Program-made: the position numbers and the translations under genes
Shown here: piece after piece, positions 2,216-60,946 of the stretch
How the letters are laid out: each line of letters starts with the position of its first letter
Numbering within the stretch: position 1 is the first letter of the stretch
The notes under the pieces: model-generated
Databases searched by the model: none
What the model was told of the DNA's origin: nothing
Seen by the model: the letters and a program-made list of their open reading frames with translations, nothing else
Assembly: GCA_030141605.1 (NCBI GenBank)
Contig: JAQGDQ010000672.1
Span: 1-64,000 of the forward strand
Source of the DNA: Tubiluchus corallicola
Lineage: Eukaryota; Animalia; Priapulida
DNA: 64,000 nucleotides
Direction: 5' to 3'

Positions 2216-2309
2216 CTGCAAATAGAAAAGACATAATTCGTCTCATCGTAATAGTAAAACCTGAGCAAAAAACAACGACTACAACCTTAAGATTTAAAAC
2301 CACAGCATT

Positions 2310-4330: not shown

Positions 4331-4406
4331 TGATTCATAAAAATACGATGCAGAACACAGCTACGAATTCTGCACCTTCGAAAGCACAAAATGTCGGAAC
4401 ACTTAC

Positions 4407-4715: not shown

Positions 4716-5089
4716 CTGAAAACCAATAAGGATAACAAGAACTATAATAAAAACAAAGATAGTAAAACTGACAATCGTGAACTAATCAGACGGTTTTTAA
4801 TAAATCTAATAATAATCATAATCATAATCTTTTTTATTTATCTTGCAATACACATACACTTATACTACAAATAATTTGAAAAAAGAATTGTGAAGAAAAG
4901 ACAGCAAAAGATAAATTGGTCATCTAATCTAGAGCCGCTACTTTTTTGGAACTCCTTTTCCTATTCGTTTCCTTTTTATTGTGCATCTAAATCTTCCATA
5001 CGGTCAAAATTGGTCATTGGTACAATCTGGTCAACCATGGTCGGTCATTGGTCAAAATTACTAGAATGACAGCTTATGGGAACAGCTAC

Positions 5090-28273: not shown

Positions 28274-28734
28274 TTCTGATCTCTGCTGCGTACCAGAAAA
28301 TCAAATTTATTTGAAACTTCTGATATCGTCATGACAACACTTTAACATAGAAACAGTAAAACAAAATTTCTGAATGACACAAAATATTGTATGTCTGATG
28401 AGAAACCATCCACAGCGATGAATGAAAGAATAAATGAATGAATGAATGAATGAATGCGTACAATTTTTGAGTAAGGATGTGTGGTAAGTTAAAACTCATT
28501 AAAAAAAGAAAATCAAAATACTAATCCTTTCTTAAACGAATGAACCTTTCTACAGACTTTATACCGGTATCATTTTAACAGTTTATATTGAAATTATTTT
28601 GGATACTTTCAAATTTCAAATTTTAAGTGAGTGGTCTGTGTATGTGTATAATATGATGGAGCTGTATGTTTTACAGTCTCCCGTCTTCAACATTTGCAGC
28701 AGTTTTTTACTAAAATCACGAAAGCTAGAAACAG

Positions 28735-33299: not shown

Positions 33300-33420
33300 T
33301 CAGAATGACGTTAGGCTCATGCTCCGATTCACCTTCCTGCCGACTACGCGAGACTGTCGCTCTATGGGCTGCGTTACCGCCACGCCTCTCACGTACAACG
33401 CCTCGGCTTGCTTCAGCTGC
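33300..33420 (-). CDS. WEE1: Wee1 kinase exon 10 (terminal)
   Basis: ttttgcag acceptor; QLKQAE...SRVVGRKVNRSMSLTSF* matches the Wee1 C-terminal RSxS 14-3-3 motif. Confidence 0.92.
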
Positions 33421-34279
33421 CTGCAAAAAAATGCTCGTATAAAAGCTTCATCGATGCAGGTTAAGATTTCACAAAAAGGTGGCACATAACAAACAGTCAT
33501 TAAAAAATCAATAATAACTAGCAAAGGCCACGCAAAAATTTTGCATATAAATGCACCTATAATCAATAATACGCAAACATCCTACACAGTCCTCACACAT
33601 AACGCAAAACCAGCAGCAGCAGCTTTTACTGAATTAAAGTTATAGGCAGAGTATAATTGATGACGTCAGAACAATGCCTTTGCGTCAGCAGTTTTCTAAG
33701 CGAAAATTTCCAAAAATAGAACATCTAATTAACTCGTCGGCACTCCTCTTGGTGGACATGTACTAAAATATAGCCCACATTATCGTGTAGCCCCGTTCTT
33801 CCTCTTTCTAAAGAGCCATATATCTCCTTCCAAGAGTCCCACCAGGCGCTGCTATAAAGTTTTTTCCGCATGCTGTTTGATCAAAATTTTGAAAAAATCG
33901 CGAGTTGGGTCCGGGAAAACGCCCGTCACTGGACGCTGTGGCCCTCTCGCAATACACCTATGGTGCCGTCGTCGAAGCTGTAGCCTCGAAAGGTTTCATA
34001 AAAAACGGTGCAGTACAAATGTGCTGATACGCATACGCTACAAAGTACAAAATCAAATCAAAATATGGTAGAAAAACCGGATAATCGCAAATATAATGTG
34101 ATCTTTAAAAAATCATGATTTTCGTTTTGGACAAATAACAGATCTAATTAAACCAGCCAACCGTTTTATGTCCAGACGAGAGTTAAAGCACAAGAAAACC
34201 CTCCACTTACATAAAGCTCAAAAATTCGTCTCCTAATTTTATACCACTCACATACCATCTTTTTGCATACAGGGCTTGC

Positions 34280-34600
34280 GTCGGCAGTAACGCTGCATAA
34301 AACGTTTAAACTAAAACCCACGATGACCGTTAGGCGCAGCCGTTTTGACGACAGGTCGTTTGAAACAAGTTTAGATAACACTGAATAAAGTTTGAAAAAT
34401 AATTCGTAGCATATCGTTGCTAACTAACTGAAATTTTAAATTACTGTATCTTGTCAATAAGATTAAAAATACGTTTTTTGGCTTGTGAGTGGTGCACCCT
34501 GGAGGGTGAGTCAGCGACATCTTACCAATTGGCATAAATATTTTAAACAATTATATCTAGTTACATGTCTTTCCAGCAGGTAAGCGAAATAATACTATGT
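34280..34600. mobile_element. Diverged interspersed repeat, second copy at ~36428-36740
   Basis: Shared blocks GCAGTAACGCTG, TGAAACAAGTTT, CTTGTCAATAA, GTGGTGCAC, AGTTACAT..CAGGTAA in the same order. Confidence 0.55.
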
Positions 34601-35091
34601 AATATAGATTTACACAGAAACTATTTTGGGACATAATTTAACATTGCTTTTCCTCCTCCCCTGATTTATGTTTGCGTAGGCGACGTCATGTGATGGCGAC
34701 GTCGAAACAGTATTGCAGGAGATTTTAAATAAAAACAAACAAAAATTCATTTCCACACGAATATGATATACGCATGAAATTGCAGTAAAGTAGTACAATT
34801 TTTCAAGGCGATACTTCAGGTGCCCCTTTTCTTGTCCTTTAACAGCACCCCCTTCCAGTCGTAGAATCTCTTATTAAACGACTTAACACTCAACTGCATT
34901 TCATTGTGATTTGATCAACATGTTAAAGCACATCAGCGTTAATTTTCACTGCCTCTTTAGGAACACCCTGTACAATGTACTTCAAGTTAAAGTACTAGAT
35001 TTGTGAAAAATTAATGTGAACAACAGATTTTCAGCCACTGAAGGTACTCCACACATCAGAAGCCATGGAATTCGCCACTGCAGCCGAAGCC

Positions 35092-35985
35092 AGATAAAAA
35101 AGTCACAAGAAAAGTCACAGATAAAAAAGTCACAAGAAAAGTCACAGATAAAAAGGTCACAGAAAAAAGACACAAGAAAAGTCATAGATGAAAAAGTCAC
35201 AAGAAAAAACATACAAGAAAAGTCACAGGTAAAAAGTCACAGGAAAAAAGTCAGCAGAAAGGTCACAGGTAAAAAAGTCACAGGAAAAAAGTCAGCAGAA
35301 AGGTCACAGGTAAAAAAGTCACAGGAAAAGCCACAGGTAAAAAAGTCACAGGAAAAAAGTCAGCAGAAAGGTCACAGGTAAAAAAGTCAGCAGAAAGGTC
35401 ACAGGTAAAAAAGTCACAGGAAAAGTCACAGGTAAAAAAGTCAGCAGAAAGGTCACAGGTAAAAAAGTCACAGGAAAAGTCACAGGTAAAAAAGTCAGCA
35501 GAAAGGTCACAGGTAAAAAAGTCACAGGAAAAGTCACAGGTAAAAAAGTCAGCAGAAAAGTCACAGGTAAAAAAGTCAGCAGAAAAGTCATAGATGAAAA
35601 AGTCACAAGAAAAAACATACAAGAAAGGTCACAGGTAAAAAAGTCACAGGAAAAAAGTCAGCAGAAAGGTCACAGGTAAAAAAGTCACAGGAAAAGTCAC
35701 AGGTAAAAAAGTCACAGGAAAAAAGTCAGCAGAAAGGTCACAGGTAAAAAAGTCACAGGAAAAAAGTCAGCAGAAAGGTCACAGGTAAAAAAGTCACAGG
35801 TAAAAAAGTCAGCAGAAAGGTCACAGGTAAAAAAGTCACAGGAAAAGTCACAGGTAAAAAAGTCAGCAGAAAAGTCACAGGTAAAAAAGTCACAGGAAAC
35901 AAGATACAAGAAGCCACAGGTAAAAAGTCACAAGAAAAGTCACAGGAAACAACATACAAGAAAAGTCACAGGAAACAGGAAAACG
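35092..35985. repeat. AAAAGTCAC(AGG/AGC) low-complexity satellite in Wee1 intron 9
   Basis: 12-16-bp subunits; one inverted unit TTCCTGTGACTTT at ~35995. Confidence 0.9.
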
Positions 35986-36141
35986 AAGAGTTTTTTCCTG
36001 TGACTTTATTACGGGTCACCTTGTAACCCCCCCCAAAGCTTCCCGTTTCTGAAAAGACCGTATATCGTGGATTTCCTTAACCCTAACACACTAACACCAT
36101 TTACGGTAAAAAGCAATTAGCTCTGACACCACTACACCTAC

Positions 36142-36287
36142 CTGGCCAATAACTGGTTCTTAAATCGTTCTGCGTTCAGTTCCTTCCTCAATTGCGCTTT
36201 CGACTTCTCCGCGTTTGGGCAGAGTACGGGATGGTAACACAGGACGGCGGCAGACGGTCGACAAGACGCGTCAGGCTGTATCATAGA
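36142..36287 (-). CDS. WEE1: Wee1 kinase exon 9
   Basis: ttttag / gtaggt; SMIQPDASCRPSAAVLCYHPVLCPNAEKSKAQLRKELNAERFKNQLLAR (subdomain XI plus coiled coil); not in the ORF track. Confidence 0.92.
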
Positions 36288-37314
36288 CTAAAAACAAAAT
36301 AAAGTGCATCATGATTCTGTGAATTGTTGAAGCACAAGAAAACATCCTTCATAAATAAAATTTAAAATATTTCTCTTTATATTTTACATTACTTATATGC
36401 TGTCTTATTGCATGGAGAGCTTGCATTAGCAGTAACGCTGTATAAAAATTGAAAATTTAAACTCCGTCCGGTGCAGCCATTTTAACGGCAGTCGTGTGAA
36501 ACAAGTTTGGATTCCAATGCTTAAAATTTGGGAAAATAATCATAGCATTTGTATCGCACTCTTCCCTAGGTAAGCAAAATTGTAAATTACTTGTCAATAA
36601 AATAAATAATGTGTTTTTTTGGTGAATCAGTGGTGCACACTGGGAAGGCGACGTAGTGCCGTGATACCAGGTGGCACAAACAATTTCAAGTTTCTTTTCC
36701 AGTTACATAAGTGCTTTAAACAGGTAATGCTAAGTAACAAAGTCTCGGCATTCACGTATAAACCAAAAAAGTCGTAAATTTAAACTTTTGAAATATTACT
36801 GTTCAAGAATTAGTCGGAATTTCAGCCTGGCAGACTTTATTAACCTTTTTCGTTATGTTTAAAATAGGTTAATTTTGATAACTCCCTCATATTCACCTGA
36901 CGTCAGGTATGATGTCACAATTAATCATACTCAGGTCAGGGGTGAAGTCTTTTCACACTTGTTAAAACTTTGATGTCAAATATGGAGAAAAATCGCGCAA
37001 AAATTTGCCTCGTTTTATGTTTCACCGATTATCGTGAATTCTTTGGCGTATAATTTAAAATTCGGTTTCCTCGTATTCTGCGCGAGTTTTTGACGTTTCA
37101 TTGTCAAAAGTGCTGAAGACATTTTAAACATTTAGCTCAAGAGATTGTCTTGAATATGTGAACCTCCATGCACAATATTAACAACACAAAAAAATTACTA
37201 GGCAGCTACAGTGACATCTCTACAAAGTACCGAAGGACAACAGATCATCTCTATAATCAATTTTAGCAGTTTCTGGATAAAATTTATATATATATATAAA
37301 TTTTATACAGAAAC

Positions 37315-37357
<43 letters not shown>

Positions 37358-37666
37358 ATTTGTGGCTACAGTACCGACAATGGCACCATATACATATATA
37401 TATATATATATTTATGTATATATACTTTGCAAAAAAAAGAAAAAAATGGCCATTTTTGGAGGTTTTTCGCCCCCGTTCCTCCCGGTGGGCCCGATTCGAA
37501 AAATAAACCCCCAATGGCATGACACTAGATCGAGACCTTTCGTCTGATGTATACATCGCCGCAAATGGTGGCGCCGTAGAGCCGCTGTAGCCTCGAATCT
37601 TATATATATATATATTAAGCCCATACCACCAAAATTAATATATACGATTTAAGATTGGGCACTTAC

Positions 37667-37774
37667 CTTTAACAAGTTTTGAAACTTTTCCGAATAGACT
37701 GGCAAGTATGGCAACTCCCCACTCCTTATACGATGCCACTCAGGTCCATTTTTTGGCAACGAACACCCGCTAGC
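37667..37774 (-). CDS. WEE1: Wee1 kinase exon 8
   Basis: tttcag / gtaagt; ASGCSLPKNGPEWHRIRSGELPYLPVYSEKFQNLLK. Confidence 0.93.
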
Positions 37775-38365
37775 CTGAAAAAAGAATTCGGCGGAACTTA
37801 GAAAGACAAAACGAACTTCGTTTATAAATGCAATCAGCGCAAAATTTCTAACAAAACCCTTGAGCGCTTCTAAGAAATGCGCCACTTCTATAAACGTTTC
37901 ATTTCTTACATTTTTTTAGTTTGGACATAAATTAAACTAAATTGTCTGAAATTAAATTAGCAATTTCATCATACAGTTCACATATTTGTATAAAAATTAA
38001 CATTAGAAAAAACTAAATTCTTTCAACTATGAAGAAGTTTTAAAGCTAATTGCTAAGACACTGATAAATCAAGTAGAATTACAGGTAAGTTTCCTAAACT
38101 TTATTTTATAAATTTTATACTGATACTATACATTGCTCTCATCTCTCACTCTTCTCTCGTCTCTCTCTCTCTCTCTTCTCTCTCCTCTCACCTCTCTCTC
38201 TCTCTCGAGGTGGGGACACCTCACGAGAAAGGATGCAAATTTTCTACAGATAAATATCAAATTGGTAGCTTTATGACAATCTTGTGATTTAGGTGAACAT
38301 TGTATACGTTTTACAGTAAAGTGATTGCAAATTTCTACATATGAACAACCATCATCGATACTAAC

Positions 38366-38625
38366 CGCTTCAAATATGGTTAAACCTAGAGCAAATATGT
38401 CCGCCTTTGGCAAGTGGACGAAATCCTCCTGTAAGATTTCATTCGGCATGTAGCGACAATCCCCCTCCTCGACCCGGGGATTCGTCGACGACGTCACGTG
38501 ACCGAGATCACCAATTTTGTACACTACTCCTCCAAGGTCATCGTCGTCGTCGTCGACATCATCCATCACGCTGTCGTCGTGGTCGTTCTGGCTCGGTTTC
38601 TTGTTATGGACAATAAAGACGTTTC
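38366..38625 (-). CDS. WEE1: Wee1 kinase exon 7
   Basis: gacag / gttagt; NVFI, acidic insert, [28 protein letters not shown] (Wee1-diagnostic EGD). Confidence 0.95.
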
Positions 38626-39047
38626 CTGTCAAGAAAAAGTGCCGAATCTAGAGACCGAAACGTAGCTTACAGACACTAAATCTACAAATTACAAGATCAG
38701 ACGCGTAAAAATGAAGCGTGAGGGCGCTACGTTCAAAAAATACAACAAACAATGCATGATTGTTAAAGGACAAGGCAACTCTTTACGTGCGTGAAGCTGA
38801 AAAAATTGTCTTGAAATTTTTATGTCACTTACGTGCTGCCCTATTGCATACGGAGTTTCCTAGTTGTAATTGAACATTTTAATTAGGTGCTGCCATCTAT
38901 GAACTAATCCTGTTACTCTACCAGCTACTTACCCCCAGTATAATTGTACGGTGCATTCACTGGATCTCTCCCTACTATTAAGTAATAGTGAAGCCTGTCT
39001 GCATAAGTCACCTATACCTACATATACTGACTGGTTTTGCTCTCCAG

Positions 39048-39295
39048 TCACTCTCTAACTCTCAGTGTTCAATGCAGGACACTCTCACTCTCAGTGTTCA
39101 GTGCAGGACACTCTCACTCTCAGTGTTCAGTGCAGGACACTCTCACTCTCAGTGTTCAGTGCAGGACACTCTCACTCTCAGTGTTCAGTGCAGGACACTC
39201 TCACTCTCTAACTCTCAGTGTTCAGTGCAGGACACTCTCACTCTCTAACTCTCAGTGTTCAGTGCAGGACACTCTCACTCTCAGTGTTCAATGCA
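39048..39295. repeat. 29-bp minisatellite, ~7-8 copies, in Wee1 intron 6
   Basis: Unit CTCTCACTCTCAGTGTTCAGTGCAGGACA. Confidence 0.9.
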
Positions 39296-39520
39296 GCAGC
39301 CATGCTACTCATGTGTCTTTAGTTAATAAACACTTTTCTGTTTGTGCAGTGCAAATATGTATTATACATTTTTTATTCTTGTTCTACAAGTGAGTGATCT
39401 ACAACGTTCAACATGACTTTAACAATTTTAATATTGTAGTATGCTTGTAGAAAAACTGACCAAAGCACTTTGTCGTAAATTTTGTTTTTTAGTTTGTGAT
39501 CTATGGATCGTCACGATCCG

Positions 39521-41040
39521 TACTTCAAGTCCTACCTGGTTTTACATCAAGATGGACTAGATTCATTGAATGAATGTACTTCAAGTCCTACCTGGTTTTA
39601 TATCAAGATGGACTAGATTCATTGAGTGAATGTACTTCAAGTCCTACCTGGTTTTACATCAAGATGGACTAGATTCATTGAATGAATGTACTTCAAGTCC
39701 TACCTGGTTTTATATCAAGATGGACTAGATTCATTCAGTGAATGTACTTCAAGCCCTACCTGGTTTTACATCAAGATGGACTAGATTCATTGCATGAATG
39801 TATTTCAAGTCCTACCTGGTTTTACATCAAGATGGACTAGATTCATTGAGTGAATGTACTTCAAATCCTACCTGGTTTTACATCAAGATGGACTAGATTC
39901 ATTGAATGAATGTACTTCAAGCCCTACCTGGTTTTATATCAAGATGGACTAGATTCATTGAATGAATGTACTTCAAGTCCTACCTGGTTTTACATCAAGA
40001 TGGAATAGATTCATTGAATGAATGTACTTCAAGTCCTACCTGGTTTTATATCAAGATGGACTAGATTCATTGAATGAATGTACTTCAAGTCCTACCTGGT
40101 TTTACATCAAGATGGACTAGATTCATTGAGTGAATGTACTTCAAATCCTACCTGGTTTTACATCAAGATGGACTAGATTCATTGCATGAATGTACTTCAA
40201 GTCCTACCTGGTTTTACATCAAGATGGACTAGATTCATTGAGTGAATGTACTTCAAATCCTACCTGGTTTTACATCAAGATGGAATAGATTCATTGAGTG
40301 AATGTACTTCAAATCCTACCTGGTTTTACATCAAGATGGACTAGATTCATTGAGTGAATGTACTTCAAGTCCTATCTGGTTTTACATCAAGATGGAATAG
40401 ATTCATTGAATGAATGTATTTCAAGTCCTACCTGGTTTTACATCAAGATGGAATAGATTCATTGAATGAATGTACTTCAAGTCCTACCTGGTTTTATATC
40501 AAGATGGAATAGATTCATTGAGTGAATGTACTTCAAGTCCTACCTGGTTTTACATCAAGATGGACTAGATTCATTGAGTGAATGTACTTCAAATCCTACC
40601 TGGTTTTACATCAAGATGGAATAGATTCATTGAATGAATGTACTTCAAGTCCACCTGGTTTTATATCAAGATGGACTAGATTCATTGAATGAACATACTT
40701 CAAGTCCTACCTGGTTTTATATCAAGATGGACTAGATTCATTGAATGAACATACTTCAAGTCCTACCTGGTTTTATATCAAGATGGACTAGATTCATTGC
40801 ATGAATGTACTTCAAGTCCTACCTGGTTTTATATCAAGATGGACTAGATTCATTGAATGAATGTACTTCAAGCCCTACCTGGTTTTACATCAAGATGGAC
40901 TAGATTCATTGCATGAATGTACTTCAAGCCCTACCTGGTTTTATATCAAGATGGACTAGATTCATTGCATGAATGTACTTCAAGTCCTACCTGGTTTTAT
41001 GTCAAGATGGACTAGATTCATTGAATGAATGTACTTCAAG
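39521..41040 (-). repeat. 56-bp tandem array, ~27 copies, of the Wee1 exon 6 3' end plus donor site
   Basis: Sense unit TTGAAGTACATTCATTCAATGAATCTAGTCCATCTTGATATAAAACCAG|GTAGGAC, i.e. LKYIHSMNLVHLDIKP plus the donor. Confidence 0.95.
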
Positions 41041-41137
41041 CCCTGAGCAAGCTGCATTGTGATCACCTTTAGCTGATGTTCTGGGAAGGTTTTCTTCGTC
41101 CTGACATTGTCGGCTATCACATCTTGGAGGCTGCCAC
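40991..41137 (-). CDS. WEE1: Wee1 kinase exon 6 (catalytic loop)
   Basis: ttctcag / gtagga; GGSLQDVIADN...QLAQGLKYIHSMNLVHLDIKP-G; phase 1-1. Confidence 0.93.
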
Positions 41138-41277
41138 CTGAGAAAAACATGTCAGGTGTATAAGCAAAAACTGAAGATCAAGACGAATTATGAATTTATT
41201 CCACAGCAACACAAAAACATACATACAAATTGATATTACATTGAAAAAAAATAAACTAAGCGAGTTACTGTAAGGAG

Positions 41278-41765
41278 CAGGGATGAGATTGCAAAAAACT
41301 CTGAAAAAACCGGGGGTTTGGGGGCCGCGAAGCCCCCTTGGAGCCAGCAACAAATTGCAATTTTGTGACCACAGAGAGCCTCTAAGTGGACTTAAAATAT
41401 CAATTACCTTGTTTCATGCATAATTTAAAATACCCAACTATCAAGGATGCATGATACCTAATTGTCTCAAAAACGCCTAAAAGTACTGGCCGCTCCTATG
41501 CAAAAGTATATAAAAACTGTCTGCAATTGACTAAAATAACTATGCACAATTGATTCTATATTTTTATACGTAGAGATATACACGTGGTTACACTGATGTA
41601 CGTGATGTAAACAAAGTGACGGCCTGCCAACTAGCAGTCAGCTTGTGAAATAATGTACTGGGTCCGTAAAAATTTTCTCAATGAATTTACGCGATTTACA
41701 AAAATGGCACTACTGGTCTTCCAGAAACACGGAATTCCGCGTATCTGCAGAAAATTCTCATCCCC
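41278..41765. mobile_element. hAT-like MITE family B, copy 2
   Basis: CAGGGATGAGATT ... ATTCTCATCCC; aligns with 7379-7881. Confidence 0.75.
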
Positions 41766-42519
41766 AAAGGAGGAGGAAGGAGCATTGAGCTTTCGAGTCC
41801 TCCTCCAGATAAGTAAAACAATTGACAATTAACATTACATTTTCATCAGTTATAACGTACATTAGAACAAAATAACTTTTGTTAGTAACTTAAGGTCAGG
41901 ATGAGTAAAATTGTCAGTTAATTATCCCATTGTAGTAGGTAATTCTTTGATGTTTTTTAAATTGATAAAGATTAAGAGTTTTCATTTCACGCGGAATTGA
42001 TGACCATATTTTAATAGCATTATATTTTGATGACTGTTTCAATGCCATTAAAATATGGTCAGACAACATTCATGGTCAGACAACAGGTCACGATTCATTT
42101 GTTATGTGTTTGATTCATCATTCAATGATAAACAATCTGAAAATTAAGATTACAAAAATTACTATTAACCATGCAAATCACCCCTAAATTATTTTAGACA
42201 CTAAATTAACAACAAAAAAGCTGATCTAATTAGTTTGTAATTACAATTGTAATATAGAATATGTCGCAAAACTGGTGTTGTCACGGCAGTGAATTTCTAA
42301 ACCAAAAGTTCTGAGTTCAAGTCTAACCGTAGGACAAGCTTTCTTAAAATTTCTTTCTTTTTATTAATTTTAGTACAGAAATAAAAATTAATTTGGCATG
42401 TCGTATAATTAACGCTAATTGCTATGATTTTCAGGTGCGATTTAACCCAAACCAATACGCTTCTCTGTTATACCAATCAAATACGGGCTGTTGTTTTTCA
42501 GTAAATATAAACGACTTAC

Positions 42520-42641
42520 CATTACAGTATTCATTCTGAATGAGCATGTGGTCGTCTTCCGCCCAGGCTGAGTAGTAACGCACTACGTGCCGGTGCTTCC
42601 CCAAGACAGCGTGAGCGTACACTTCATTTAGCGCATTCTGC
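42520..42641 (-). CDS. WEE1: Wee1 kinase exon 5
   Basis: ttgcag / gtaagt; [40 protein letters not shown]. Confidence 0.96.
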
Positions 42642-42689
42642 CTGCAATGTGGAAACAAAAAACGTTAAACACGTGGGATTTTATTACGG

Positions 42690-43230
42690 AGCAAATATGA
42701 TGATTTTTCATATACTACTCCACTTTCAAATCCGATAAAAAGCCATCCATTTTAACACAACTGATACTGCAAGTGTTTCTGATAATTAAATAATATATTA
42801 CAAACTTAATTAACGGCCTTGCGAGCCCAACTATTGATGACGTCACAAATTAACACAATTTTCAACAGAAAAAATATTCCACAAGCGTGTTGCACGTGTT
42901 TGCAAAAGCAAAACTGAAGTACAGTGCCACTGTAAGATATTCAGTGTGTTGTACTAAAACTAGACAAGTTTTAAGATAAAAATTCAAACTTCAAATTTTT
43001 CCGCTGTGCTCACGCATGAGCTGACGAACGTGTGTAGTTCGTCACAAACTATCACATCTGAACTGTGAGGTACAACACCTGTTTTTTAAGCAACGTGTTT
43101 CTGAAATGCAGGCACTAGTGCCCGTCTAACTAGCGAACGACGAAATGCATGTGAATGCAAAGAACTAGTGATGCGAAAATGAAATTGTGTTTGTGTCATA
43201 ATAAATCAGTCATTCTGGAAAAAATAGTCT
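42690..43230. mobile_element. Family C element, inverted partial copy
   Basis: Reverse-complement similarity to 60230-60720 (e.g. GAGCCCAACTATTGATGACGTCACAAA, AAAACTAGACAAG). Confidence 0.6.
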
Positions 43231-43628
43231 ACTTCCTTTCAATATTTTAAAGAGTAGATTGTTTTGACGTACAGTTTAAGATTGGGTCTGGCTTTACTGT
43301 AAGCAATTTCAAAACTAGTTGACAATATTTCTGACGTGGTCAGAAACTGAAGATTTTGCCAACAATAGTTGTAAAATTCAGCCCTAAAAATGAAAAGACG
43401 ACAGCTTTTTTTGAAAGTGCTCATTTTCTTTTATTGAATTGCTTGAATACGAGGAAAGTGCATTTCTTTTCTTCAATCAATCAATTTATTTCACTCCAGC
43501 AATACATATGCAATACATCAACATACAATATTATTATAAAGTAATGTTTAGGATTTCGCAATGAAACCTCAGCATTTAACTGTTCAGCCCATCACCCACG
43601 GGTCAAAGGTCAACAATCTCCCACTTAC

Positions 43629-43798
43629 TCATAGATGCTGCCAGCAACAGGCTTGACGGAACGTTTGATGGCATACGTGCACCCATCCAGCCGGTTGATG
43701 CATTTAAACACGCTACCGAATTCTCCCTTCCCGATTCGACACACTTCCAGAAATTCTTCATTGTAACGGGAAATGTTATTCTCTCGTAAGGCTATCTT
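43629..43798 (-). CDS. WEE1: Wee1 kinase exon 4 (P-loop)
   Basis: tttgcag / gtaagt; ENNISRYNEEFLEVCRIGKGEFGSVFKCINRLDGCTYAIKRS. Confidence 0.96.
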
Positions 43799-45019
43799 CT
43801 GCAAAAACAAAATTAGATGAATTACGAACTTGAAACAAATACAGGTGGTCATCAACTTACGGCCATAGTCAATTCTGGTTGATTGGCCGTAACAGGAACT
43901 GGACGCAAGTTGGACACGAATACTCAAGGACTGCGCCCCGACGTGTCGTGACGCTAAAGTTGTCACTGGGGTGTTTTGGTGAGAGTCAACAACCGACATT
44001 GGCAGGTTTATTAGACTATTTTTGTAGTTGCGATGTTCATGTTAAACAGATGAAATCACTGGATGAAAGCATGGTTTAACTTTGCGATCTGTATTTTACT
44101 CAAAATCATAGTCTCATAGTCAATCCACATATACCCGAAAATGGTAAACATAATCAACAGTAGCAAACAAAAGTCAAAGTAAATCCACCAGCCAATATAT
44201 CATGGCACCTGAGTCAAAACGTTATTATAACCACACAACTGTTTAAGCCTATTGCTTGTCCTCTAATCTTGCTACCAAGTGTGAAAAACTACTACCTTCT
44301 CAGAGAAGCCCAGTAACCCAGTTCCAACCAAACATATAGCAGTAGCAAGTACATACATATATTGGAAACTTTCAAGTGTACAAACAGATGTCAGCACTGT
44401 CTTAGTGGTAATGAAAAACTAAAGTTTAACACTACAAATCAAAATTAATAATAAACTGTAAATTAAATGCTCGAATCTGCGACAACATGTCAGATGTTCC
44501 GTGCACATGACACGAAGTATGTAAGTGCCGTGAAAGCGGATAGCAATTTTAAATTAATTTGTTAAAAGAAATAATAGCAAGAAGATGTAAGTCATAATTA
44601 GTTTCATGCAATGAATTAATTAAGTTGAATCGGTCAAACAGCCCTAAAGTGCATAATCGGTCAAACAGTCCTAAAGTGCACAATCGGTCAAACAGTCCTA
44701 AAGTGCATAAGTTAAATCATTATAGGCAGAATGACTAGACACCGAAGACACGCATTACGCACAATGGAAAATGCTGATGGCTCTCTCTCCCTCTCAGAGC
44801 GCACGTTTTTCTTACTGCTTCACTTTTTTCGTAGATGGCAAGACAGTTGCCTAAACAGTTTTCCCCCGGGCTTCTTATCTACGGAATTCTCTAACCGGAA
44901 AATGCTACCGGTAATCGTTTTAGACTTTTGCATTATTGCACGCAATTATTTTTCAGGCTGTTTGTTGAATTATTCCACTTTCTAAGCCTAGTTCTAAACT
45001 ATATGAGGTAACAGGACAA

Positions 45020-45105
<86 letters not shown>

Positions 45106-45849
45106 TGTCACTTATATACACATGCTATGGTTGTGCAAAAATTTCCTTACGAATTGTAAACATACTATCAACATTTTCATGTACAGACTACGAACGTTGC
45201 CTTGAAAATCAGTAAATATCTAAAGAATATTTCCGAATTGTAGCGAAGCGTGTCATAGTTGGACATGTGCCGAGCAAGCATAGCAACAGGGATGAAAATT
45301 GAACATTTTAAACAACAATTGAATGGACCACAATACCTGACCAGCAGGGTAAGCAATTACGCAGGCTTAAGCCGTCAAAATTCCATTAAAGTTTATCCAT
45401 CTGTAACAGACCGTTGGTCGAACCAGGAAAGTGGTGACCAGTAGAGAAACAGAAACCACGATCAACAATTTCTGCTGACAAACATGTTTACGCATGTTTG
45501 GAATGCCAGCTTGTAGTAAACAACAGCAAACAACATTACTCAACAAGTGTTAAGGGTCAAACAAACAAACAATGACCCGCTGCCACGCCGGGGATATGAA
45601 TCAACACCAGCTGTACGCACGGCAGCCGTTGCCTGAACTGTGCAAATATTGACAGCAGGTCCAAAGTTTAGAAATCTCGACAAAACGCTGAAATTCGTCT
45701 AGTCAGTGAGTAGGGCTGTCTCTATGCGGCAGCTGAGTCATGCCACAATGCAAATTCCACGCGTTGAGAAGGAAGGGGGTCAAGACACCCCCATATCGTC
45801 AACACTATTTGCACGAGTTTAATGTAGTACAGCTCAGAAGCGTTAGCAT

Positions 45850-46440
45850 ACATATATATATATATATATATATACATACATACATATTAATTCTTTATTT
45901 GTCATTAAAATGGTCCACTCATTATAAAAAAATTGAGTAATCCTCAGCATAATGTTAAGATAACAACACTGTTCTAGACAAATGCGTCCAGTGCATACTA
46001 AAAAAACTAAAGTGCAAAGCTAAGGCCTAATTATATACAATAAATGAACATATTTACAAATACCATATTAAAATATTTTTACAAAACAATATTACAAAAG
46101 TGTATTAAATTTTACATGACATATTTTACACTATATATACATCTGACATTACAAAACTAACATAACATGTATTACATTACATAATTTTTTTTAAAAAATT
46201 TTACATTTTTAATCATTTTATGGAGTCAGGGGCGGGGGTGGATGAAAGTTGAGTCTGTGTAATTAGTAGCAGATGCACAATGTGGAAGTTGAAACCTGTT
46301 ATATTGATATTGTTTTAATTTCTTTTTAAAGTGGTGGAGAGATTCTATTTGTTTTATTTCACTGGGTAGTAAGTTCCATAAATGTATGGCCTGTTTTGAT
46401 ATAGAGTTATTTCCAAATTTATTGTTTACTGTATGTAGAG
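45850..46440 (-). mobile_element. 5'-truncated CR1/L2-like LINE end (ORF2 C-terminus, 3' UTR, AATAAA, (TA)n)
   Basis: SISKQAIHLWNLLPSEIKQIESLHHFKKKLK fits the WNxLP...S...FKxxLK ORF2 terminus; UTR shared with 13480-13950. Confidence 0.75.
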
Positions 46441-46453
46441 TGAGTGTACATAC

Positions 46454-46514
46454 CTTGCAGGGGTGAAAAACTAACTCTTCTTCTTCATCGCTCATTAGTA
46501 CGTCATCATAGCTT
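46454..46514 (-). CDS. WEE1: Wee1 kinase exon 3
   Basis: tttcag / gtatgt; 61 nt; SYDDVLMSDEEEELVFHPCK; supplies the required phase 2 to phase 0 bridge. Confidence 0.8.
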
Positions 46515-47029
46515 CTGAAATAGTAATCAAAAATTAAGTTAATTACCTGCCAAGCAGTGATGGGCAATTAATAGATTAATTGAATTAATCGAGATTACAA
46601 CCACGTAGAAATCGATATAATTGGCGTTTGAACAGTAATTTATTTAATCCAGAGTAAAATATACGTGTTACACACTGACCAAAAGGCAGAGTTTTAGCAC
46701 AAATAAACGGAATCTTTGCATTTTTCTTCGTTTTTCTCACCTTACACAATCAATCAATCAATCAATTTATTTCACGCCAGCAATAGATATAAAATACATC
46801 AACATACAATATTATGTATATAATTTGACACTGTACAGTATATAATTTGATTGATCAGTTTACTTCAGCTGAAAGTCATATACAAATACATTAAAATTTA
46901 AACTATAACACACAATGTTAAAAATCACATTAAATTAGATACAAGAATAAAAAATACATACAAAGCAAAAGTTATCGTATAAAGAATAAGATTGAATGTT
47001 GTATAAAGAGTGAATGTGCAGAGAAAAAT

Positions 47030-47400
47030 GCAGGAGCAGCACTAAATTAAGATTTTTAAGGCATACCGAGTGGAAATGACAAAATTACATAGACACATGC
47101 AAGCCAGAAGAGGTTAAAGATATATTGAAAATAAGACTGAATATGATTAAAGTTAAAGGGAACTACAAGAATGAGTTTAAGGATCAGTTATTATGCCCAG
47201 TGTGTGAGGAAGATGATGACACTACTGAACATATGCTTAGATGTTACAGATATTGAGAATGGAAATTTTTTTTGAACTCAGATGTATTAATGAACAGTGA
47301 AAAGGAAGGATTGCTAGAAATTAGAAATCTAGCGAACGAATGCATGGAATACAGGATAAAGATAAATAAAGACATTAAACTTGGAAAAGACAACTAAAAG
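47030..47400 (+). mobile_element. Decayed LINE ORF2 C-terminal fragment
   Basis: KGNYKNEFKDQLLCPVCEEDDDTTEHMLRC (CxxC...H...C knuckle) surrounded by stops. Confidence 0.55.
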
Positions 47401-48839
47401 ATCAGCGTTATAGAAGAATAGACTTTGCACCCTATAAAGGTGCCCGCCTCTGATAGGTGGAGAGAGTCGAGTATCGCAATCGTTATGTAATTGAACCTTA
47501 CTGTTGTAACATAATATCTAAGAAAAATTACCGAGCGAAAATAATCTCAATTAACCTAAACAACCCATCCATTAAACTCCATTGGTTTACTGAGTCCAAA
47601 ATTACTGATGACCGCAAAAAAGAACCGAAGCATCAAGACTGCAAACTTACTTATCGCAAAAACTGCAATCTTATCCGTCGAAGCAATAAAATCGACATAA
47701 TGGAGAATTAAACATGGCCGAACAGCACGAATCTTCAAAATTTAATCGGGTAAATTCCGAAAACAAATTTGAGTGATTTCTCAACCGTGTGGAAAAGTGC
47801 CACGACTTTCTGATTTTCGTGAAGCAGTTGTTTACGAATTGCACTGACTGAAATGCTAACAACAACAACAACAACAACTAAACAGGTGAGAATTGAAATT
47901 TCCAAGAACATGAATCACCTCCAACACCTGGTGACAAGCAGGGCACTTGAATGCAATTCCATTCATTCCCAACACTCAGACCCATTACCACCCACCTGTG
48001 GAGTTCGTGGTCTAACCTCCACCCCCATTGTCTCACACCTCCTACGACTGCTCGCTCGGACAATAGTGACATCATGCTCAAAACAACACCACAGCTTACT
48101 GGACAGATAATGGACAGAAGTAATCAAGAGATACCACCATCCGTGACCTACTAAACGGTAATCAGACAGGTTCACATGTCACTTATAATGGGGCAGTAGC
48201 CATGACAGTCATTAATAAACATTCTTACCTCAGTGAAAACAAATAGGAACATGTGTGTTCGATTAACCAGGTATTTGGGAAAAACAAACCCTCAATCAGA
48301 CAGATTGACATCTCACTTATAATGGGGCAGTAGCTATGACAGTCATTAATAAACATTCTTACCTTAGTGAAAACCACGGGGGAACACGTGTGTACGATTA
48401 ACCAGGTATTTGGGGAAAACAAAACCCTGGATGTCTAATTAAAAAAAAGTCATTAATGACATTCGACGGGGGGTTTAGGCGTGACAAAGTCACACAATGT
48501 TGTGTCAATTGTAGAGAAAATTCTAACAAAAACAGCTGACTGTCTGCAGCAGGAAGACATTAATTGGTAAAGATGTGTAAGATTTCACACGTCTTTTAAT
48601 CTACCAAATTCACATGGTGTTATTTCACGTAACGCATTGGGGAAAAACGACTCGCATTGTGGTAAGACATTAATGGTTAAAGCACAAAAGATCTGTTAAA
48701 GAAACAGACGCCAAGAAAGCGGCACCCGAACGTGGGAAAATGGAAAATTCCCAACGCGGAAAAACGGTTATCCAAGAGTTACACAAACCGCTACAAAACG
48801 TCGCCTACAGCGTGACGCGGGAACAGTTATTAAAAAAAA

Positions 48840-49489
48840 GCAGCGGTGCCTTAATTAAATCAACAAAAATCGCTACATCTTAACACACAACGTTAAAGAG
48901 AAACAGTTGCTAACACGACACAAACGATTGTTGACTTTCAAGGTAATTAAGGCGTCATTAGAAACAGCAGTGGTACCTTCTTAATTAAATCAATAAAAAT
49001 CGTTACATCTTAGCCCCATAAGGTTAAAGAGAAACAGTTGCTAACACGACACAAACGATTGTTGACTTTCAAGGTAATTACGGCGTCATTAGAAACAGCA
49101 GCGGTACCTTAATTAAATCAACAAAAATCGCTACATCTCAACACACAAAGTTAAAGAGAAACAGTTGCTAACACGACACAAACGATTGTTGACTTTCAAG
49201 GTAATTAAAGCGGTATTAGAAACAGCAGCGGTACCTTCTTAATTAAATCAATAAAAATCGTTACATCTTAGCCCCATAAGGTTAAAGAGAAACAGTTGCT
49301 AACACGACACAAACGATTGTAGACCTTCAAGATAATTAAGGCGTAACGTTATATTAGAAACAGCAGCGGTACCTTCTCATTTAAATCAACAAAATTGCTA
49401 CATTTTAGCCCCACAAGGTTAAAGAGAAACAGTTGCTAACACGACACAAACGATTGTTGACTTTCAAGGTAATTAAGGCGTAACGTTAC
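48840..49489. repeat. ~130-bp tandem repeat, 5 copies
   Basis: AAACAGTTGCTAACACGACAC recurs at about 48901, 49032, 49159, 49290 and 49427. Confidence 0.9.
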
Positions 49490-50399
49490 AAGAACGAACA
49501 ACATTTTTAACAACTTTGCAAGGTCGCGCCCATTCGAGAGGAAATGTTTTTTTTGAGTTTTTGACGGCAGTAAAAATATTGGTGACGCTAAGCGAAAGAA
49601 TACAGCACGAGTCAAGCGAAGCGTTCCCGGGGTGTTTAAAGCGATTTAAGTTTCGCGCCATTTTAAAATCTTGTTTTCCTAATGGGTGTAAACTGACACA
49701 AGGGGGTCACTGTGTTAGAAACCGGTAATCTTGCGTGGTATTTGTGTCAAATCACCGACGGAAAACAAGGACGGAGAGTTATCTACAAGAGTAACAATGA
49801 TCAGGAAGTTTGCAAACTCGCCTGCGTAAGCCATTCTCTCATAGAGCACCGCCTTCACAGAACGGGCCACTCATTGCAGAATGTAGCAACTCAAAAGCCT
49901 TTACAAGTGAACAGTTTTACAAGCGAGGTATAAAATCGAATTTGCAAGACCGGATTTCCGCGTACGCGTGGTAAATTAAAGTTGAACGTAATTCTGGATA
50001 AAGCTGGAACAGGAAAAGTTATGCTTGGTATAGCTCTTCAATCAATCAATTTATTTCACTCCAGCAATACACATACAATACATCAACATACAATATTATT
50101 GAAACAAAAAGAAACAGTATAGGTAAAGAAAACGTTGATCAAGTCAAATTAACCAAATAAAAGAGTTGCTGTATGACACCTTGAAAGCTTGGCTTGTTAA
50201 GGTGGCACAAATGAGTGAATGAAAGATGGTTAGGATTAGTAGACATGATGGAATGGAAAAAAATAGTAAGATTAGGGATAGGAAGAAGGAAAAGAGGAGA
50301 AGAAACGACCATAGCGTATGTTTAATTTACATAGAGGTATATTAAAATAGCATTATAATTGATTGGAGGCCATATATTGCGACTGCATGAGACATGGAA

Positions 50400-51030
50400 C
50401 CATTAAAATTGTATTATAAGTATGAATCAAAAATGGTCCTTTTCAAGTACTTTTTGAAACTATAAACAGTTTTGTGTATTTTTACTTGGGCACTTATTTT
50501 ATTCCAGTTATTGGGGGCTGTGAATTTAATAAAGTGCCTAGCACTATTAGTGAAATGAAACACTCTTAAATGAAATCACATTAATAAAAGCGCTTAATGT
50601 ACCCCCAAGTCACATTAATTAAAACACTGATTTCACATGGAAATCTAAAATATTATTAAGATAATTTGTAATATATACATTATTTTGTAAAAGACGTAAG
50701 ATCATTTGTAGCAAGTTTCGGTTAGCTTACTATTAAAAACAGACAGACTGGATGAACTGACAATGTCACAACTGAGGTTATTCCATATACTACAAATTTT
50801 GTTTGAAAAATCGTATTTATACAAGTACAATCTAGAATAATTGACAAAAAGTTGATAATTTTGTTCTCGTAAAAGTGTGGTGGGAGTAAAAGTGAAGAAA
50901 TGGTCAAAATTTAAATCTGCCAGCTTATGCATGATCTTATATATTATATACCATTTTTAAATCAAAAATAATGCGCCTCATTTCGAGTGGCTGCAAACTA
51001 GTTTTAACTAATCTGCTCATATGCAGAATG
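50400..51030 (-). mobile_element. Two decayed LINE ORF2 C-terminal fragments
   Basis: FIKFTAPNNWNKIS...YSFKKYLK (~50440-50535) and KICSIWNNLSCDIVSSSSLSVFNSKL (~50720-50800). Confidence 0.55.
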
Positions 51031-52023
51031 TGTCCCTAATGGCACCAATCAAAGGCCTATAAAAGGCCTGCAGGTAAAATAACACCAAACCCTTTCAATG
51101 CACTGTGTCGTGGACTAGTTACGGGGACCAAACTGGTGCTCAGTGCTCTGGGAGATGCCTCACAACAGACCGGTGTCTTGGACCAAACTGGTGCTCAGTA
51201 CTCTAGGAGATGCCTCACAACAGACTTGTAAATATTTACAAGACAAATCACACAGTCAGTGCAATCAAAAATCACGTTTTTTATTTCAAGCAGATTTCTG
51301 GTGTTTAGAACAATTTCAAGCTAGTAACCGAATGGCGGCCATTTTACCTTGCAAAACATACCATGTAAATGAACTTATCGTTGATAACAATGCGCACAGA
51401 GGCACTGAATTTGAAAAAAACTTGAAAAATCACGCACGAACTACATCACAAATAAGACTATTGATAATTTAACCCCCCCCCCACCTCCCAAAAAAACCTG
51501 TTGTTCACTCATCGATGTCTTAAATCGGTAATCAGAAAAAGTGAAATAAGGATTTGCGGAAGTGAATTAAAAGCACAAAGAAAGAGAATGAACAACAACC
51601 GATTTTAAAAGTTTTAAATAATTAAAACTCAAGTCGTTACCCCAAACGGCAAGTGTAAAAGTTAAGAAACAAAAATGTCAGATTTCAAATGAAGACCAAA
51701 CCTGTATTTGTGCTCAAAACAAGTTTTTGCAGCAAACAAACAAATTGGCAGCCTTTCATTCACAAAGCAAACATAAAAATGTCCTTAATTTACACAGGCC
51801 TACTCATAAAATACTGATATTAATTATTGTTATTAATTAACGCTATACACGCTACTTTAGGCTAATTTAATAATCAGCTAGAAGAATTTTTATTACCCTG
51901 TTGAAAAGTTGGTAATCTTCAGGTGAGAAACTAAAAATTTTTAACCTTTCTGAGCACTGTGTATTATTCATATTCATACTCATATTCAAGCCGCTAGTCA
52001 GCATTCTAGTTTTGCATTTTTAA

Positions 52024-52567
52024 AAGAAAACCGGATGATTGTGCAAACACGAGTTCGGAATAAAGAATGCTCTAAAATATTGAAAACTACAATGGCTTTT
52101 TTAAAATCAAAGCTTAGATTAAATAATAATTACCTCGGATAATCGAGTTTTGTTAAACTTTCAAAGCTACACCTGGCTCAGCGAATCTACTAAGATTGGC
52201 AACAACACCTTTTTGTCACATCCGCGTGGAAGAAAAATAGAAGGCACTACATTGATAACCATGATCATGAACTGCTGTGTTAGTTTCTGACGTCATATGA
52301 TGTAGAACCCATTTTTCGTGACATCACGCGTTTAAGCAGATGTGTCAAACTTATGCAAACTTGTTTGACGCACAAGAGAAGATGCCTGCCATTGCACAAA
52401 CTGTGGTTAGTTTCTGATGTAAGCATTAACTGTGTTCAGTCACTGTTAACTTTTAAGCTAATTATTCAAATATAAGAAACAATTCGTAACTTTTAGAGGC
52501 AAGAAAATGTACATGTTGGACAGTAAATTAAAACGAGATTGTGTCCAAAAAATCGTCCGGTTTTCCT
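52024..52567. mobile_element. Kolobok-like family A, copy 3 (inverted)
   Basis: ttaa|AAGAAAACCGGATGATTG ... AATCGTCCGGTTTTCC; reverse-complement of copies 1 and 2. Confidence 0.7.
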
Positions 52568-52748
52568 TGAAAAATACAGAGAGTTCAAAGAATTCCAAGA
52601 ATGCTAAGCATCTTAAGTACCTGCCCACATTTTAACCGGTCGTAAATTTTACATTCAAGGCAGTAATGCCAACTGAACAATTTCCGCCAGGTTTATCATG
52701 TAATAAAATATCTATAAAAATTAAAATATTTATATATATACAACTTAC

Positions 52749-53096
52749 CTGTTAATATCTAAAGGACGACTTCGCTTGCTACCTGCATGCGGCGAAGGGC
52801 CATTAATTTCCGGAGTGAAAGGGTTAACATTTGCTAGCAGACGATCCTCCGACCTCCTCTCCGGTTTCTCTCGTTTTGTGGACGCCCTCCGTAGTAGAGA
52901 TTTGGGAGTGTGGGGGGTGTCGAAAAGTCGTAGAGCGCGTAGCTTGCGGTGTGGCGGGGTTCCACCCACCGATTTGCCGTTCGGGCTGTTGCCGAGGTTG
53001 CCTTCGTCGCTATTTCGTCCGCTGTCCTCCCCATCAGCATCAATACAAGCATCTGTGGTGAGCAACGAGGTATTCCTTTGCCGAAATTTGCTGCAT
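52749..53096 (-). CDS. WEE1: Wee1 kinase exon 2 (regulatory region)
   Basis: tttttag / gtaagt; TPPHRKLRALRLFDTPHTPKSLL (Wee-box region) and ANVNPFTP, both conserved in metazoan Wee1. Confidence 0.95.
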
Positions 53097-54357
53097 CTAA
53101 AAATATAAAGGCACCGATATTAATTATGATATCATACACGGAGCAAAAATTCACTAACTTAAAATCAGTGATAAACATTTTAATGTAATATACACTTCAT
53201 CTTAGTAAATTGTACTAGATTTTAGTTGCATAAATAAAGACATAAATTCAATTTCACGTAATTATAGACTTGATTATTAGTATATAATAAGTATTACAAG
53301 TATAATTGATTTATATGTACTTATTAGTTTTCTTTTTGATCAGTTTAAATTTTCCATTTTGCTTGCTAATTTAAATTTTCTCTTCTCATAGCCAAATTTA
53401 TTTACTGTTTCTAAATTCAAACTCATTTGAACTTGCTGCCTCATTTATTTTTTTTTATTTTGTTAATTTGCTGATTATTCTCATTTGTACATGCCTGACT
53501 TGACAGGTCACTTAATTCTCTTCAGTTTGGATAGGGGTGGTTGACTCGGTGACCCTTGATCTTTTCGCCACCCCGTCTCTTTTCCGTCTTTATTTTAGTT
53601 TTGAGCTTTTGTTTATGTTTATTTTTATTTTGTAACATTCAGAGACAAATTTTTTATACTAACTAACTTACTAACTAAAGTAATTTGAAAGCACTAAAGT
53701 TTTTTAATTCACTAAATTACAAAAAAGTCTGCATAATTTATGAATTTAATCATATTAAAATTTACAAAATTCGATAATTTAAGTTTAATTATAATACTGC
53801 AATACCCACAAACACGTAACATCCACCATTAATAAATTTTATAATCTTCAAAATTAAAAATATTCATATTTCATTGTATTCTTGATTAGGGCTGATTCAT
53901 TGGATGGTTACTTTTGGTTCCCAATTACTTTTACTAATAGTCACTAATAAAATTATTAAACAGCTGCTCGGAACACGTTCAGCAATTTATTTTACGTACA
54001 ACTGAGCTAGTATTTATATGGGCAATTCTACAAAAAACGTTATAATTTTGTAAAAAACCTGGCCTAAAAATAATAAAATTAATTATACTGAAAAGTACGG
54101 ATATTACTTTAATTAGTATTATTAGCCGCAGTAATTTACGATAGCCAGAATTTATTGTCTAAAACTTCAAAAGTAATTAAGTTAATTATAATGAAACGTA
54201 CAGTTATCACTTTAATTATTTTTAAGTTAATGAGCAATCAGTATGCGTAGTTCATCCTAGCAACCAGAGCATACGTCAGTAATACTAACTATAGTAACGG
54301 TGTAGCCTACTGTACTTACAAAGTAATTTAAATGCTAAGATTTCACAATTTCCCTAC

Positions 54358-54623
54358 CGTGCAGAAAGCCTTGATTTTCTTGGACTTTTAATAAACGAGA
54401 AGTTTCTAGATACGTTGTTATGTCTGTCATTTTCTAAGTATTCCATAGATGTATCCAAATCTGTCCCGGAACTGATTGAAAACGCTGTATCATTGGGTCC
54501 ATCTTGGAAACCAGGGTCTGCGTCTTCTTCCTCATCGGAAAAGCTCAACCTTTGGACGATCTCATCTTCTTCGTAACCATCAGAACCCAAGTGAAATTCA
54601 TCTTGTCGTCTGAATAAAGACAT
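54358..54623 (-). CDS. WEE1: Wee1 kinase exon 1
   Basis: ATG at 54623; MSLFRRQDEF...IVQRLSFSDEEED...; gtaggg donor, phase 2 matches exon 2. Confidence 0.85.
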
Positions 54624-60835: not shown

Positions 60836-60946
60836 GGTAGGATTGGAGACTGGAAAAACTGCTATTCAGAGGAGCTAAGCAAAATAGCCGACATGCTGTA
60901 TGAGCAGAACTTTGGTGGAACAGGACTGCAGCATGAATTTGAGTAA
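60836..60946 (+). pseudogene. Orphan terminal exon of a cytosolic sulfotransferase
   Basis: GRIGDWKNCYSEELSKIADMLYEQNFGGTGLQHEFE* matches the SULT C-terminal (RK)GxxGDWKN...GLxFxxE motif; no other SULT exons recognised. Confidence 0.65.

What the first reader, a model, noticed from the sequence alone, without database searches (positions are those of the whole stretch)
39521..41040. Wee1 catalytic loop and its splice donor amplified ~27 times as a satellite
Seen: the last ~49 nt of exon 6 (LKYIHSMNLVHLDIKP, including the catalytic Asp) plus GTAGGAC repeat in 56-bp units, so nearly every unit carries CCAG|GTAGG in near-identical exonic context. Only the first copy has GAC ATA; the others have GAT ATA or GAT GTA (HLDVKP). 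Microhomology between exon CAGGGCTTGAAGTAC and intron GTAGGACTTGAAGTAC explains the seeding. Reading past donor 1 gives CCA GGT AGG ACT TGA, so use of any later donor truncates the kinase in its catalytic loop. Each unit also runs GT...AG, so removing whole units regenerates a donor. This is the tandem-duplication (AG|GT) model of intron gain and a possible recursive-splicing ladder. Inference: a key cell-cycle gene must pick 1 of ~27 donors, which could act as a copy-number-dependent rheostat and as a gene-conversion reservoir for the active site.
Basis: partly seen in the sequence, partly recalled or inferred. Interest (0 to 1): 0.85.

Follow-up and report, generated by a model that had tools for sequence, protein, structure and literature searches.

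The report
Splice-donor minisatellite in wee1 intron
In the intact cell-cycle kinase gene wee1 of what is likely a priapulid worm, the end of one exon and its splice signal are repeated 27 times into an old intron; this is an ordinary example of a repeat type known from human and lancelet genes, and the cell likely splices at the first copy and ignores the rest.

Summary
The array is there: 27.2 copies of 56 bp (39520-41044, 95% match). Each unit is the last 50 nt of wee1 exon 6 plus 6 nt of intron; 26 of 27 keep CAG|GT. The gene is intact (10 coding exons, 582 aa), and any later donor gives a stop at codon 375. A contig from a second study shows the head-to-tail junction, but no contig spans the array, so the copy number rests on the assembly. 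This is a known class: lancelet 'mirages' and the human F7, CBS, 6-16, lamin B2 and PDGF minisatellites. In F7 only the first donor is used, whatever the copy number. The bolder readings fail here. The intron position is shared with 19 of 45 other Wee1 loci, so no intron was gained. The array's AGs score no better than random intronic AGs, so it is not a recursive ladder. The copies show no significant constraint, and unit 1 stays distinct from all 26 others. No RNA was available, so donor choice is inferred. The scan has noted this arrangement before on other DNA (78 findings hold the search words, in at least 24 genomes).

The parts
39520..41044 (-). 56-bp minisatellite, 27.2 copies; unit = last 50 nt of exon 6 plus first 6 nt of intron 6
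40985..41040 (-). Unit 1: the real exon end (LKYIHSMNLVHLDIKP, catalytic-loop Asp368) and authentic donor CAG|GTAGGA at 40991/40990; the only unit with GAC
39530..40984 (-). Units 2-27: intronic copies; 25 keep a GT pseudo-donor, unit 12 (40425-40370) has lost GT
39520..39529 (-). Terminal partial unit (10 nt); with the 4 nt before it, a 13-of-14 match to the exon at 41044-41031; inferred seed repeat
40991..41137 (-). wee1 coding exon 6 (147 nt, phase 1-1)
38626..40990 (-). wee1 intron 6 (2365 nt; about 910 nt without the 26 extra units); position shared with other Wee1 genes
38366..38625 (-). wee1 coding exon 7 (supplies the N of the catalytic loop and KIGDLGH); pyrimidine-rich acceptor
33300..54623 (-). 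Whole predicted wee1 coding span: exons 54623-54358, 53096-52749, 46514-46454, 43798-43629, 42641-42520, 41137-40991, 38625-38366, 37774-37667, 36287-36142, 33420-33300; all nine introns GT-AG; 582 aa, no internal stop
39053..39296 (.). Second, unrelated 29-bp minisatellite (7.9 copies) in the same intron, not at a splice site

Best explanation
This is a 56-bp minisatellite whose first unit spans the exon 6/intron 6 border of an intact wee1 gene (a 'mirage'); it likely arose by slippage between two short repeats 56 nt apart, likely grew and drifted without selection, and is likely tolerated because splicing would use the first donor. Shown: the array, the intact frame through donor 1, the premature stop through any later donor, the shared intron position, and the lack of acceptor signals inside the units. 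Inferred: a 14-nt near-repeat (one copy in the exon, one just behind the donor) seeded the first duplication; slippage or unequal exchange built 27 copies; duplication in this geometry leaves the exon and first donor untouched, so the array is nearly invisible to selection. Inferred by analogy with F7: the most upstream donor dominates. Any leak to later donors would give a stop four junctions before the last and would likely be cleared by nonsense-mediated decay.
For: Anatomy and intact frame. The array ends in a partial unit and is bounded by a direct repeat, as two published birth models expect (PMC3389668, passages). That repeat is 10 nt exact against 4-8 nt at the other 8 wee1 donors (with the array collapsed in the script), and 4 of 27 units carry the exon's G at the one mismatched seed position. 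No significant constraint: 13 variable columns; 5 synonymous and 5 non-synonymous (one nonsense) in the exon-derived part, P=0.08 against 25% expected, P=0.17 without the unit-1 site; 3 of 13 in the 9 donor columns, 2.1 expected. The genome is repeat-prone here: 10 apparently non-coding arrays of period 20 or more and 5 or more copies fill 13.6% of the window. No such array at the same donor in 19 of 19 other Wee1 loci examined (6 had under 300 intron bases). Precedent: F7, lamin B2 and PDGF use only the authentic donor; copy number has no effect in F7 constructs (PMC1557585); lancelet mirages do not disturb splicing (PMC3087553; PMC3902484).
Against: No RNA from this animal shows which donor is used. 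The donor (CAG|GTAGGA) matches the consensus at 7 of 9 positions and the copies are as good as the original. In 2 of the 5 human genes listed by PMC1557585 (6-16, CBS) two pseudo-sites are also used. First-donor preference was shown in mammalian cells, not in this animal. The synonymous share (5 of 10) leans above the neutral figure, though not significantly. The seed is reconstructed from one allele; no array-free allele was seen.
Confidence: 0.8

Rival explanations
1. Leaky mirage: same neutral origin, but donors 2-3 take a measurable minority of transcripts into a premature stop, lowering wee1 output slightly with no adaptive role.
For: Copies of the donor are identical at -3..+5 in 25 of 27 units. 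6-16 and CBS use two proximal pseudo-sites (PMC1557585 introduction). Here each pseudo-donor has 50 nt of exon-like sequence in front of it, against 4 nt in F7.
Against: F7, lamin B2 and PDGF show no leak; lancelet mirages give no aberrant mRNA. Every leak product is truncated before the catalytic-loop Asn, so strong leak should be selected against.
Confidence: 0.12
2. Functional rheostat or conversion reservoir: array length tunes the share of productive wee1 mRNA, or the copies feed sequence back into the active-site exon, and selection keeps the array.
For: 26 of 27 units keep GT; the frame is mostly conserved and several changes are conservative (I>V, S>A). Tandem-repeat length does associate with splicing at many human loci (PMC10078293, search listing and passages).
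Against: GT retention is what a young array gives: donor columns vary as much as the rest. Unit 1 differs from 26 of 26 copies at one site. Array alleles are rare or absent among 81 homologues (V for I in the loop 0, F for V 0, A for S 1). F7 donor choice is independent of copy number. No array in 19 of 19 other loci with this intron.
Confidence: 0.04
3. Recursive-splicing ladder, intron gain, or intra-array mini-exons: the AG before each GT (or another AG in the unit) acts as an acceptor, so units are removed stepwise or become new introns; one internal AG would give an in-frame 21-nt mini-exon that doubles the VHLDxKP loop.
For: Each unit has AG|GT. A 21-nt mini-exon keeps the frame and would give a 589-aa protein. 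Mirages have been proposed as a route to new introns (PMC3087553).
Against: Ratchet points have the form (Y)nNCAG/GUAAGU in large introns (PMC3245913, passage). These AGs lack the pyrimidine tract and score -5.7 to -15.3, against 0.9 to 13.2 for the nine real acceptors left out in turn (small model of 19 sites). The intron is 2.4 kb and its position is shared with other animals' Wee1.
Confidence: 0.02
4. Assembly artefact: the array, or most of its length, is misassembled or misplaced.
For: No contig listed spans the array or its joins to exon 6 and to the unique intron.
Against: 19 distinct unit sequences with shared variants; a head-to-tail junction contig in an independent run; depth over one unit tens of times that of a single-copy contig.
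Confidence: 0.02

Closest known systems
Lancelet 'mirage' minisatellites (Adh3, troponin C, globins BflGb6/BflGb9, PGBD5); PMC3087553 and PMC3902484, passages read
   Same: Tandem repeat spanning an exon-intron boundary in an invertebrate; unit in the reported range (Adh3 10-72 bp); splice signals repeated; boundary unit left out of homogenisation, as unit 1 is here.
   Different: Other phylum (likely priapulid); 27 copies against 3-6 in BflGb6; the unit covers a kinase catalytic loop; splicing was tested by RT-PCR there and not here.
Human F7 intron 7 37-bp VNTR; PMC1557585, abstract, introduction and passages read
   Same: First monomer spans the donor; identical pseudo-donors follow in the intron.
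   Different: F7 unit has 4 exon and 33 intron bases, here 50 and 6; 5-9 copies against 27; first-donor use and copy-number independence were shown for F7 and are only inferred here.
Human 6-16 (IFI6), CBS intron 13, lamin B2 and PDGF intron 4 minisatellites (as summarised in the introduction of PMC1557585; originals not read)
   Same: Same layout; 6-16 has 25 pseudo-sites, close to the 25 here.
   Different: 6-16 and CBS also use two pseudo-sites; lamin B2 and PDGF use only the authentic one. Here all later donors lead to one premature stop.
Recursive-splicing ratchet points (Drosophila Ubx RP3); PMC3245913, passage
   Same: AG directly followed by GT.
   Different: No pyrimidine tract, short intron, 56-nt spacing.
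Intron gain by duplication of an AG/GT proto-splice site (Rogers model, as cited in PMC3087553)
   Same: Tandem duplication of a segment holding AG|GT.
   Different: The duplicated site is an existing donor of an intron shared with other Wee1 genes; no new exon-intron pair results.

Membership tests
Mirage / junction-spanning minisatellite | Tandem array whose terminal unit spans a real exon-intron boundary | tested here: met
   boundary confirmed by the open frame and by the same intron in other Wee1 loci
Mirage / junction-spanning minisatellite | Splice signal reiterated in most units | tested here: met
   26 of 27 units with CAG|GT
Mirage / junction-spanning minisatellite | Host gene stays intact through the authentic site | tested here: met
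   582-aa frame, 9 GT-AG introns
Mirage / junction-spanning minisatellite | Authentic (first) donor predominates in mRNA | not testable with these tools
   no RNA holder listed
Mirage / junction-spanning minisatellite | Length polymorphism or instability | tested here: inconclusive
   junction seen in a second study's run, but contigs give no copy number
Recursive-splicing ratchet point | Pyrimidine tract before CAG|GT | tested here: not met
   3 of 10 pyrimidines against 7-9; scores at the 33rd-49th percentile of 821 intronic AGs
Recursive-splicing ratchet point | Large intron | tested here: not met
   2365 nt
Recursive-splicing ratchet point | Intermediates in nascent RNA | not testable with these tools
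   no RNA holder listed
Intron gain by tandem duplication | Intron position is new to the lineage | tested here: not met
   same phase-1 position in 19 of 45 distinct loci, 12 sequence clusters; convincing downstream acceptor in 10 of 19
Wee1 kinase | Best matches are Wee1; HxDIKPxN and KIGDLGH motifs | tested here: met

The most novel reading that the evidence does not exclude
Because each copy carries 50 nt of true exon context, unlike F7, later donors compete for real: a share of wee1 transcripts is sent into a stop in the catalytic loop, that share scales with array length, and a hypermutable repeat sets the dose of a mitotic-entry kinase between individuals or cells.
Probability: 0.05. 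Interest if true: 0.65.

Novelty: new member of a known kind. Interest (0 to 1): 0.15.

Why it matters
Little in itself: it adds a likely priapulid case to a known, apparently common class. Its one asset is as a test system. The unit is almost all exon, every wrong choice has the same scorable outcome, and unit 1 carries a private base, so RNA reads could show whether first-donor preference, demonstrated for F7 in mammalian cells, holds in an invertebrate when the decoys carry full exon context. It is also a warning for annotation: such arrays give many false kinase-motif hits and false exons.

Tried and rejected
No whole genome is held, so the genome-wide frequency of such arrays was not measured. 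No RNA holder listed; the one RNA-like run X6 laid 2 contigs, both on an interspersed repeat; X5 laid none: no evidence either way. No near-identical protein from this species among the 120 listed of 1276 hits (best named hit Priapulus). The careful tree did not finish; the quick tree of 36 rows puts the protein with Priapulus (SH-aLRT 100, 71% identity), with no deuterostome or other scalidophoran named among the rows. Eight other array stretches of the window were inspected by eye for exon-border origin: none clear, one possible (95-bp array). Position of variants along the array is not clustered (adjacent-unit permutation P=0.14). Paper searches: 'minisatellite' + 'multiple splice donor sites' 5 papers; five-term VNTR/exon-intron boundary search 0; 'wee1, minisatellite, intron, splice' 1 unrelated paper; 'mirage, minisatellite, amphioxus' 2. 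I found no report of this wee1 array in those searches; the library lacks most subscription papers. The original CBS, 6-16, lamin B2, PDGF and Adh3 papers were not read. PMC4829307 (passages) added nothing.

Full report
Observation. Tandem Repeats Finder gives an array at 39520-41044, period 56, 27.2 copies, 95% matches. Read on the minus strand it is 27 full units (41040 to 39530, one of 55 nt) and a 10-nt partial unit. Each unit is the last 50 nt of an exon, coding LKYIHSMNLVHLDIKP plus one base, and the first 6 nt of the intron. 26 of 27 units keep CAG|GT; unit 12 has lost GT and unit 7 has a 1-nt deletion behind it. Unit 1 alone has GAC; 26 of 26 others have GAT, 16 of them followed by GTA.

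The gene. tblastn of homologues (8 queried, 4 displayed) and inspection of the borders give ten coding exons from 54623 to 33300, nine GT-AG introns and a 582-aa frame with no internal stop. The repeated exon is exon 6 (147 nt). It matches solved Wee1 kinases best (E 1e-10). The best full-length hit among the 120 proteins held is Priapulus caudatus Wee1 (69.6% over 388 aa), and a quick tree of 36 rows pairs the two (SH-aLRT 100; the careful search did not finish). The animal is likely a priapulid or near kin. Earlier scan notes on this genome say the same, which is not independent support. Using any of the 25 later GT donors reads through donor 1 into a stop at codon 375, removing the Asn of the catalytic loop and everything after it.

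Is it real? I laid contigs on two stretches that each hold one unit and a flank. Summed depth over unit 1 was 5685 in X1 and 388 in X2, against 164 and 9 on a single-copy contig nearby; overlapping contigs inflate this, it is no copy number, and that sample may be the assembly's source. Run X3, from another sample and study, has an 86-nt contig that runs off the end of the unit and back to its start, 56 earlier. X5 laid nothing and X6 nothing on the gene's exons. So a tandem array of this unit exists outside the assembly, but its length and its joins to unique sequence were not seen in contigs.

Origin. The array is bounded by a 14-nt near-repeat with one mismatch, one copy in the exon and one just behind the donor. 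With the array collapsed, the exact part is 10 nt, against 4-8 nt for the best exon-end/intron-start match at the other 8 donors. 4 of 27 units carry the exon's base at the mismatched position, which fits a first junction made inside the repeat, though a later transition would look the same. A partial last unit and short flanking repeats are the marks of two published models of minisatellite birth (PMC3389668, passages). The window is rich in such repeats: 10 apparently non-coding arrays of period 20 or more with 5 or more copies, 8694 bp, 13.6% of the window (merged by eye).

Intron gain. Of 80 loci fetched with a Wee1 alignment, 60 held the H-x-D-x-K-P motif; 15 exact duplicates were dropped; of 45 left, 19 have GT at the same phase-1 position and 26 read straight on, many of them uninterrupted frames that look like transcripts. 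The 19 fall in 12 clusters at 85% identity and are 44-64% identical to the window over the last 100 exon bases; a convincing acceptor leading into x-N-[IV]-F was found in 10, a doubtful one in 1, none in 8 mostly short contigs. The intron is therefore old, and the array only lengthened it. None of the 19 has an array at this donor (6 had under 300 intron bases).

Recursive ladder. Ratchet points are (Y)nNCAG/GUAAGU in large introns (PMC3245913, passage). The unit's CCAG has 3 pyrimidines in -13..-4; the nine real acceptors have 7-9. In a small weight matrix (9 wee1 and 10 homologous acceptors) real sites left out in turn score 0.9 to 13.2; the four AG classes of the array score -5.7 to -15.3, at best the 33rd-49th percentile of 821 intronic AGs. 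One internal AG would define an in-frame 21-nt mini-exon that doubles the loop, but it is the lowest-scoring class.

Selection and conversion. There are 13 variable columns and 19 distinct units, with a mean of 2.9 differences per pair. Ten columns are exon-derived: 5 synonymous, 5 non-synonymous including one nonsense. Against 25% expected this is P=0.08, or 0.17 without the unit-1 site: a lean, not a result. The 9 donor columns hold 3 of the 13, with 2.1 expected, so the donors are not specially kept. Among 81 of 120 homologues with the full loop motif, none has V at the I of HxDIKP, none has F at the preceding V, one has A at the S and three have V at the first I. Unit 1's private base shows no recent exchange at that site; lancelet mirages also leave boundary units out of homogenisation (PMC3087553).

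What is known. PMC1557585 (abstract, introduction, passages) describes this layout in human F7 and lists 6-16, CBS, lamin B2 and PDGF. In F7 the pseudo-sites are functional but only the most upstream donor is used, and deleting or adding units does not change the choice; 6-16 and CBS also use two pseudo-sites. Lancelet 'mirages' span exon-intron borders, vary in length and do not appear to disturb splicing (PMC3087553; PMC3902484). I was led to the mirage papers by earlier scan notes, which list 78 findings with these words in at least 24 genomes, and one search shows one in another kinase, NEK9. These are unchecked notes, used only as leads. My searches found no paper on this wee1 array.

Verdict. 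A real, neutral-looking mirage minisatellite in an intact wee1 gene; first-donor use is likely but untested. New member of a known kind; interest 0.15. The boldest reading left open is a length-dependent leak that sets Wee1 dose (probability 0.05), because the decoys carry far more exon context than in F7.

Noticed in passing
window 56974-58155 (+): 95-bp array, 12.4 copies, 96% matches; each unit holds CAG|GTAAGT preceded 12 nt earlier by a second CAG|GT-like site. The first unit differs from the following ones at two positions and the array ends just before the donor motif, as in the wee1 array. Possibly a second mirage; no host exon was identified.
   Followed up: partly
window 60842-60946 (+): Short frame IGDWKNCYSEEL...LQHEFE-stop behind an AG; recalls the C-terminus of cytosolic sulfotransferases (resemblance from memory, not tested).
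   Followed up: no
window 22094-28300 (-): A 2068-codon stop-to-stop frame with coding tandem repeats (42/84-bp and 45-bp units); no Pfam family at E 0.01.
   Followed up: partly
window 41165-42064: High-copy interspersed repeat in wee1 intron 5; summed contig depth up to 2 million in X1 against 164 for single copy.
   Followed up: no
window 42313-42664: Run X3 has depth 1000-2000 with no differences over exon 5 and its intronic flank while nearby single-copy DNA has none; unexplained, perhaps an enriched library.
   Followed up: no
window 1869-4785 (-): Two cysteine-rich exons with similar ends (...LYDTG / ...IYDTG) separated by 47-bp arrays of about 40 copies in all; looks like a gene built of repeated extracellular modules; no Pfam hit for the one exon tested.
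   Followed up: no
window 14903-16081 (-): C2H2 zinc-finger array frame, 392 codons.
   Followed up: no
window 35095-35977, 39053-39296, 44628-44710, 48181-49481: Further tandem arrays inside wee1 introns 9, 6, 3 and 2, none overlapping an exon border.
   Followed up: partly
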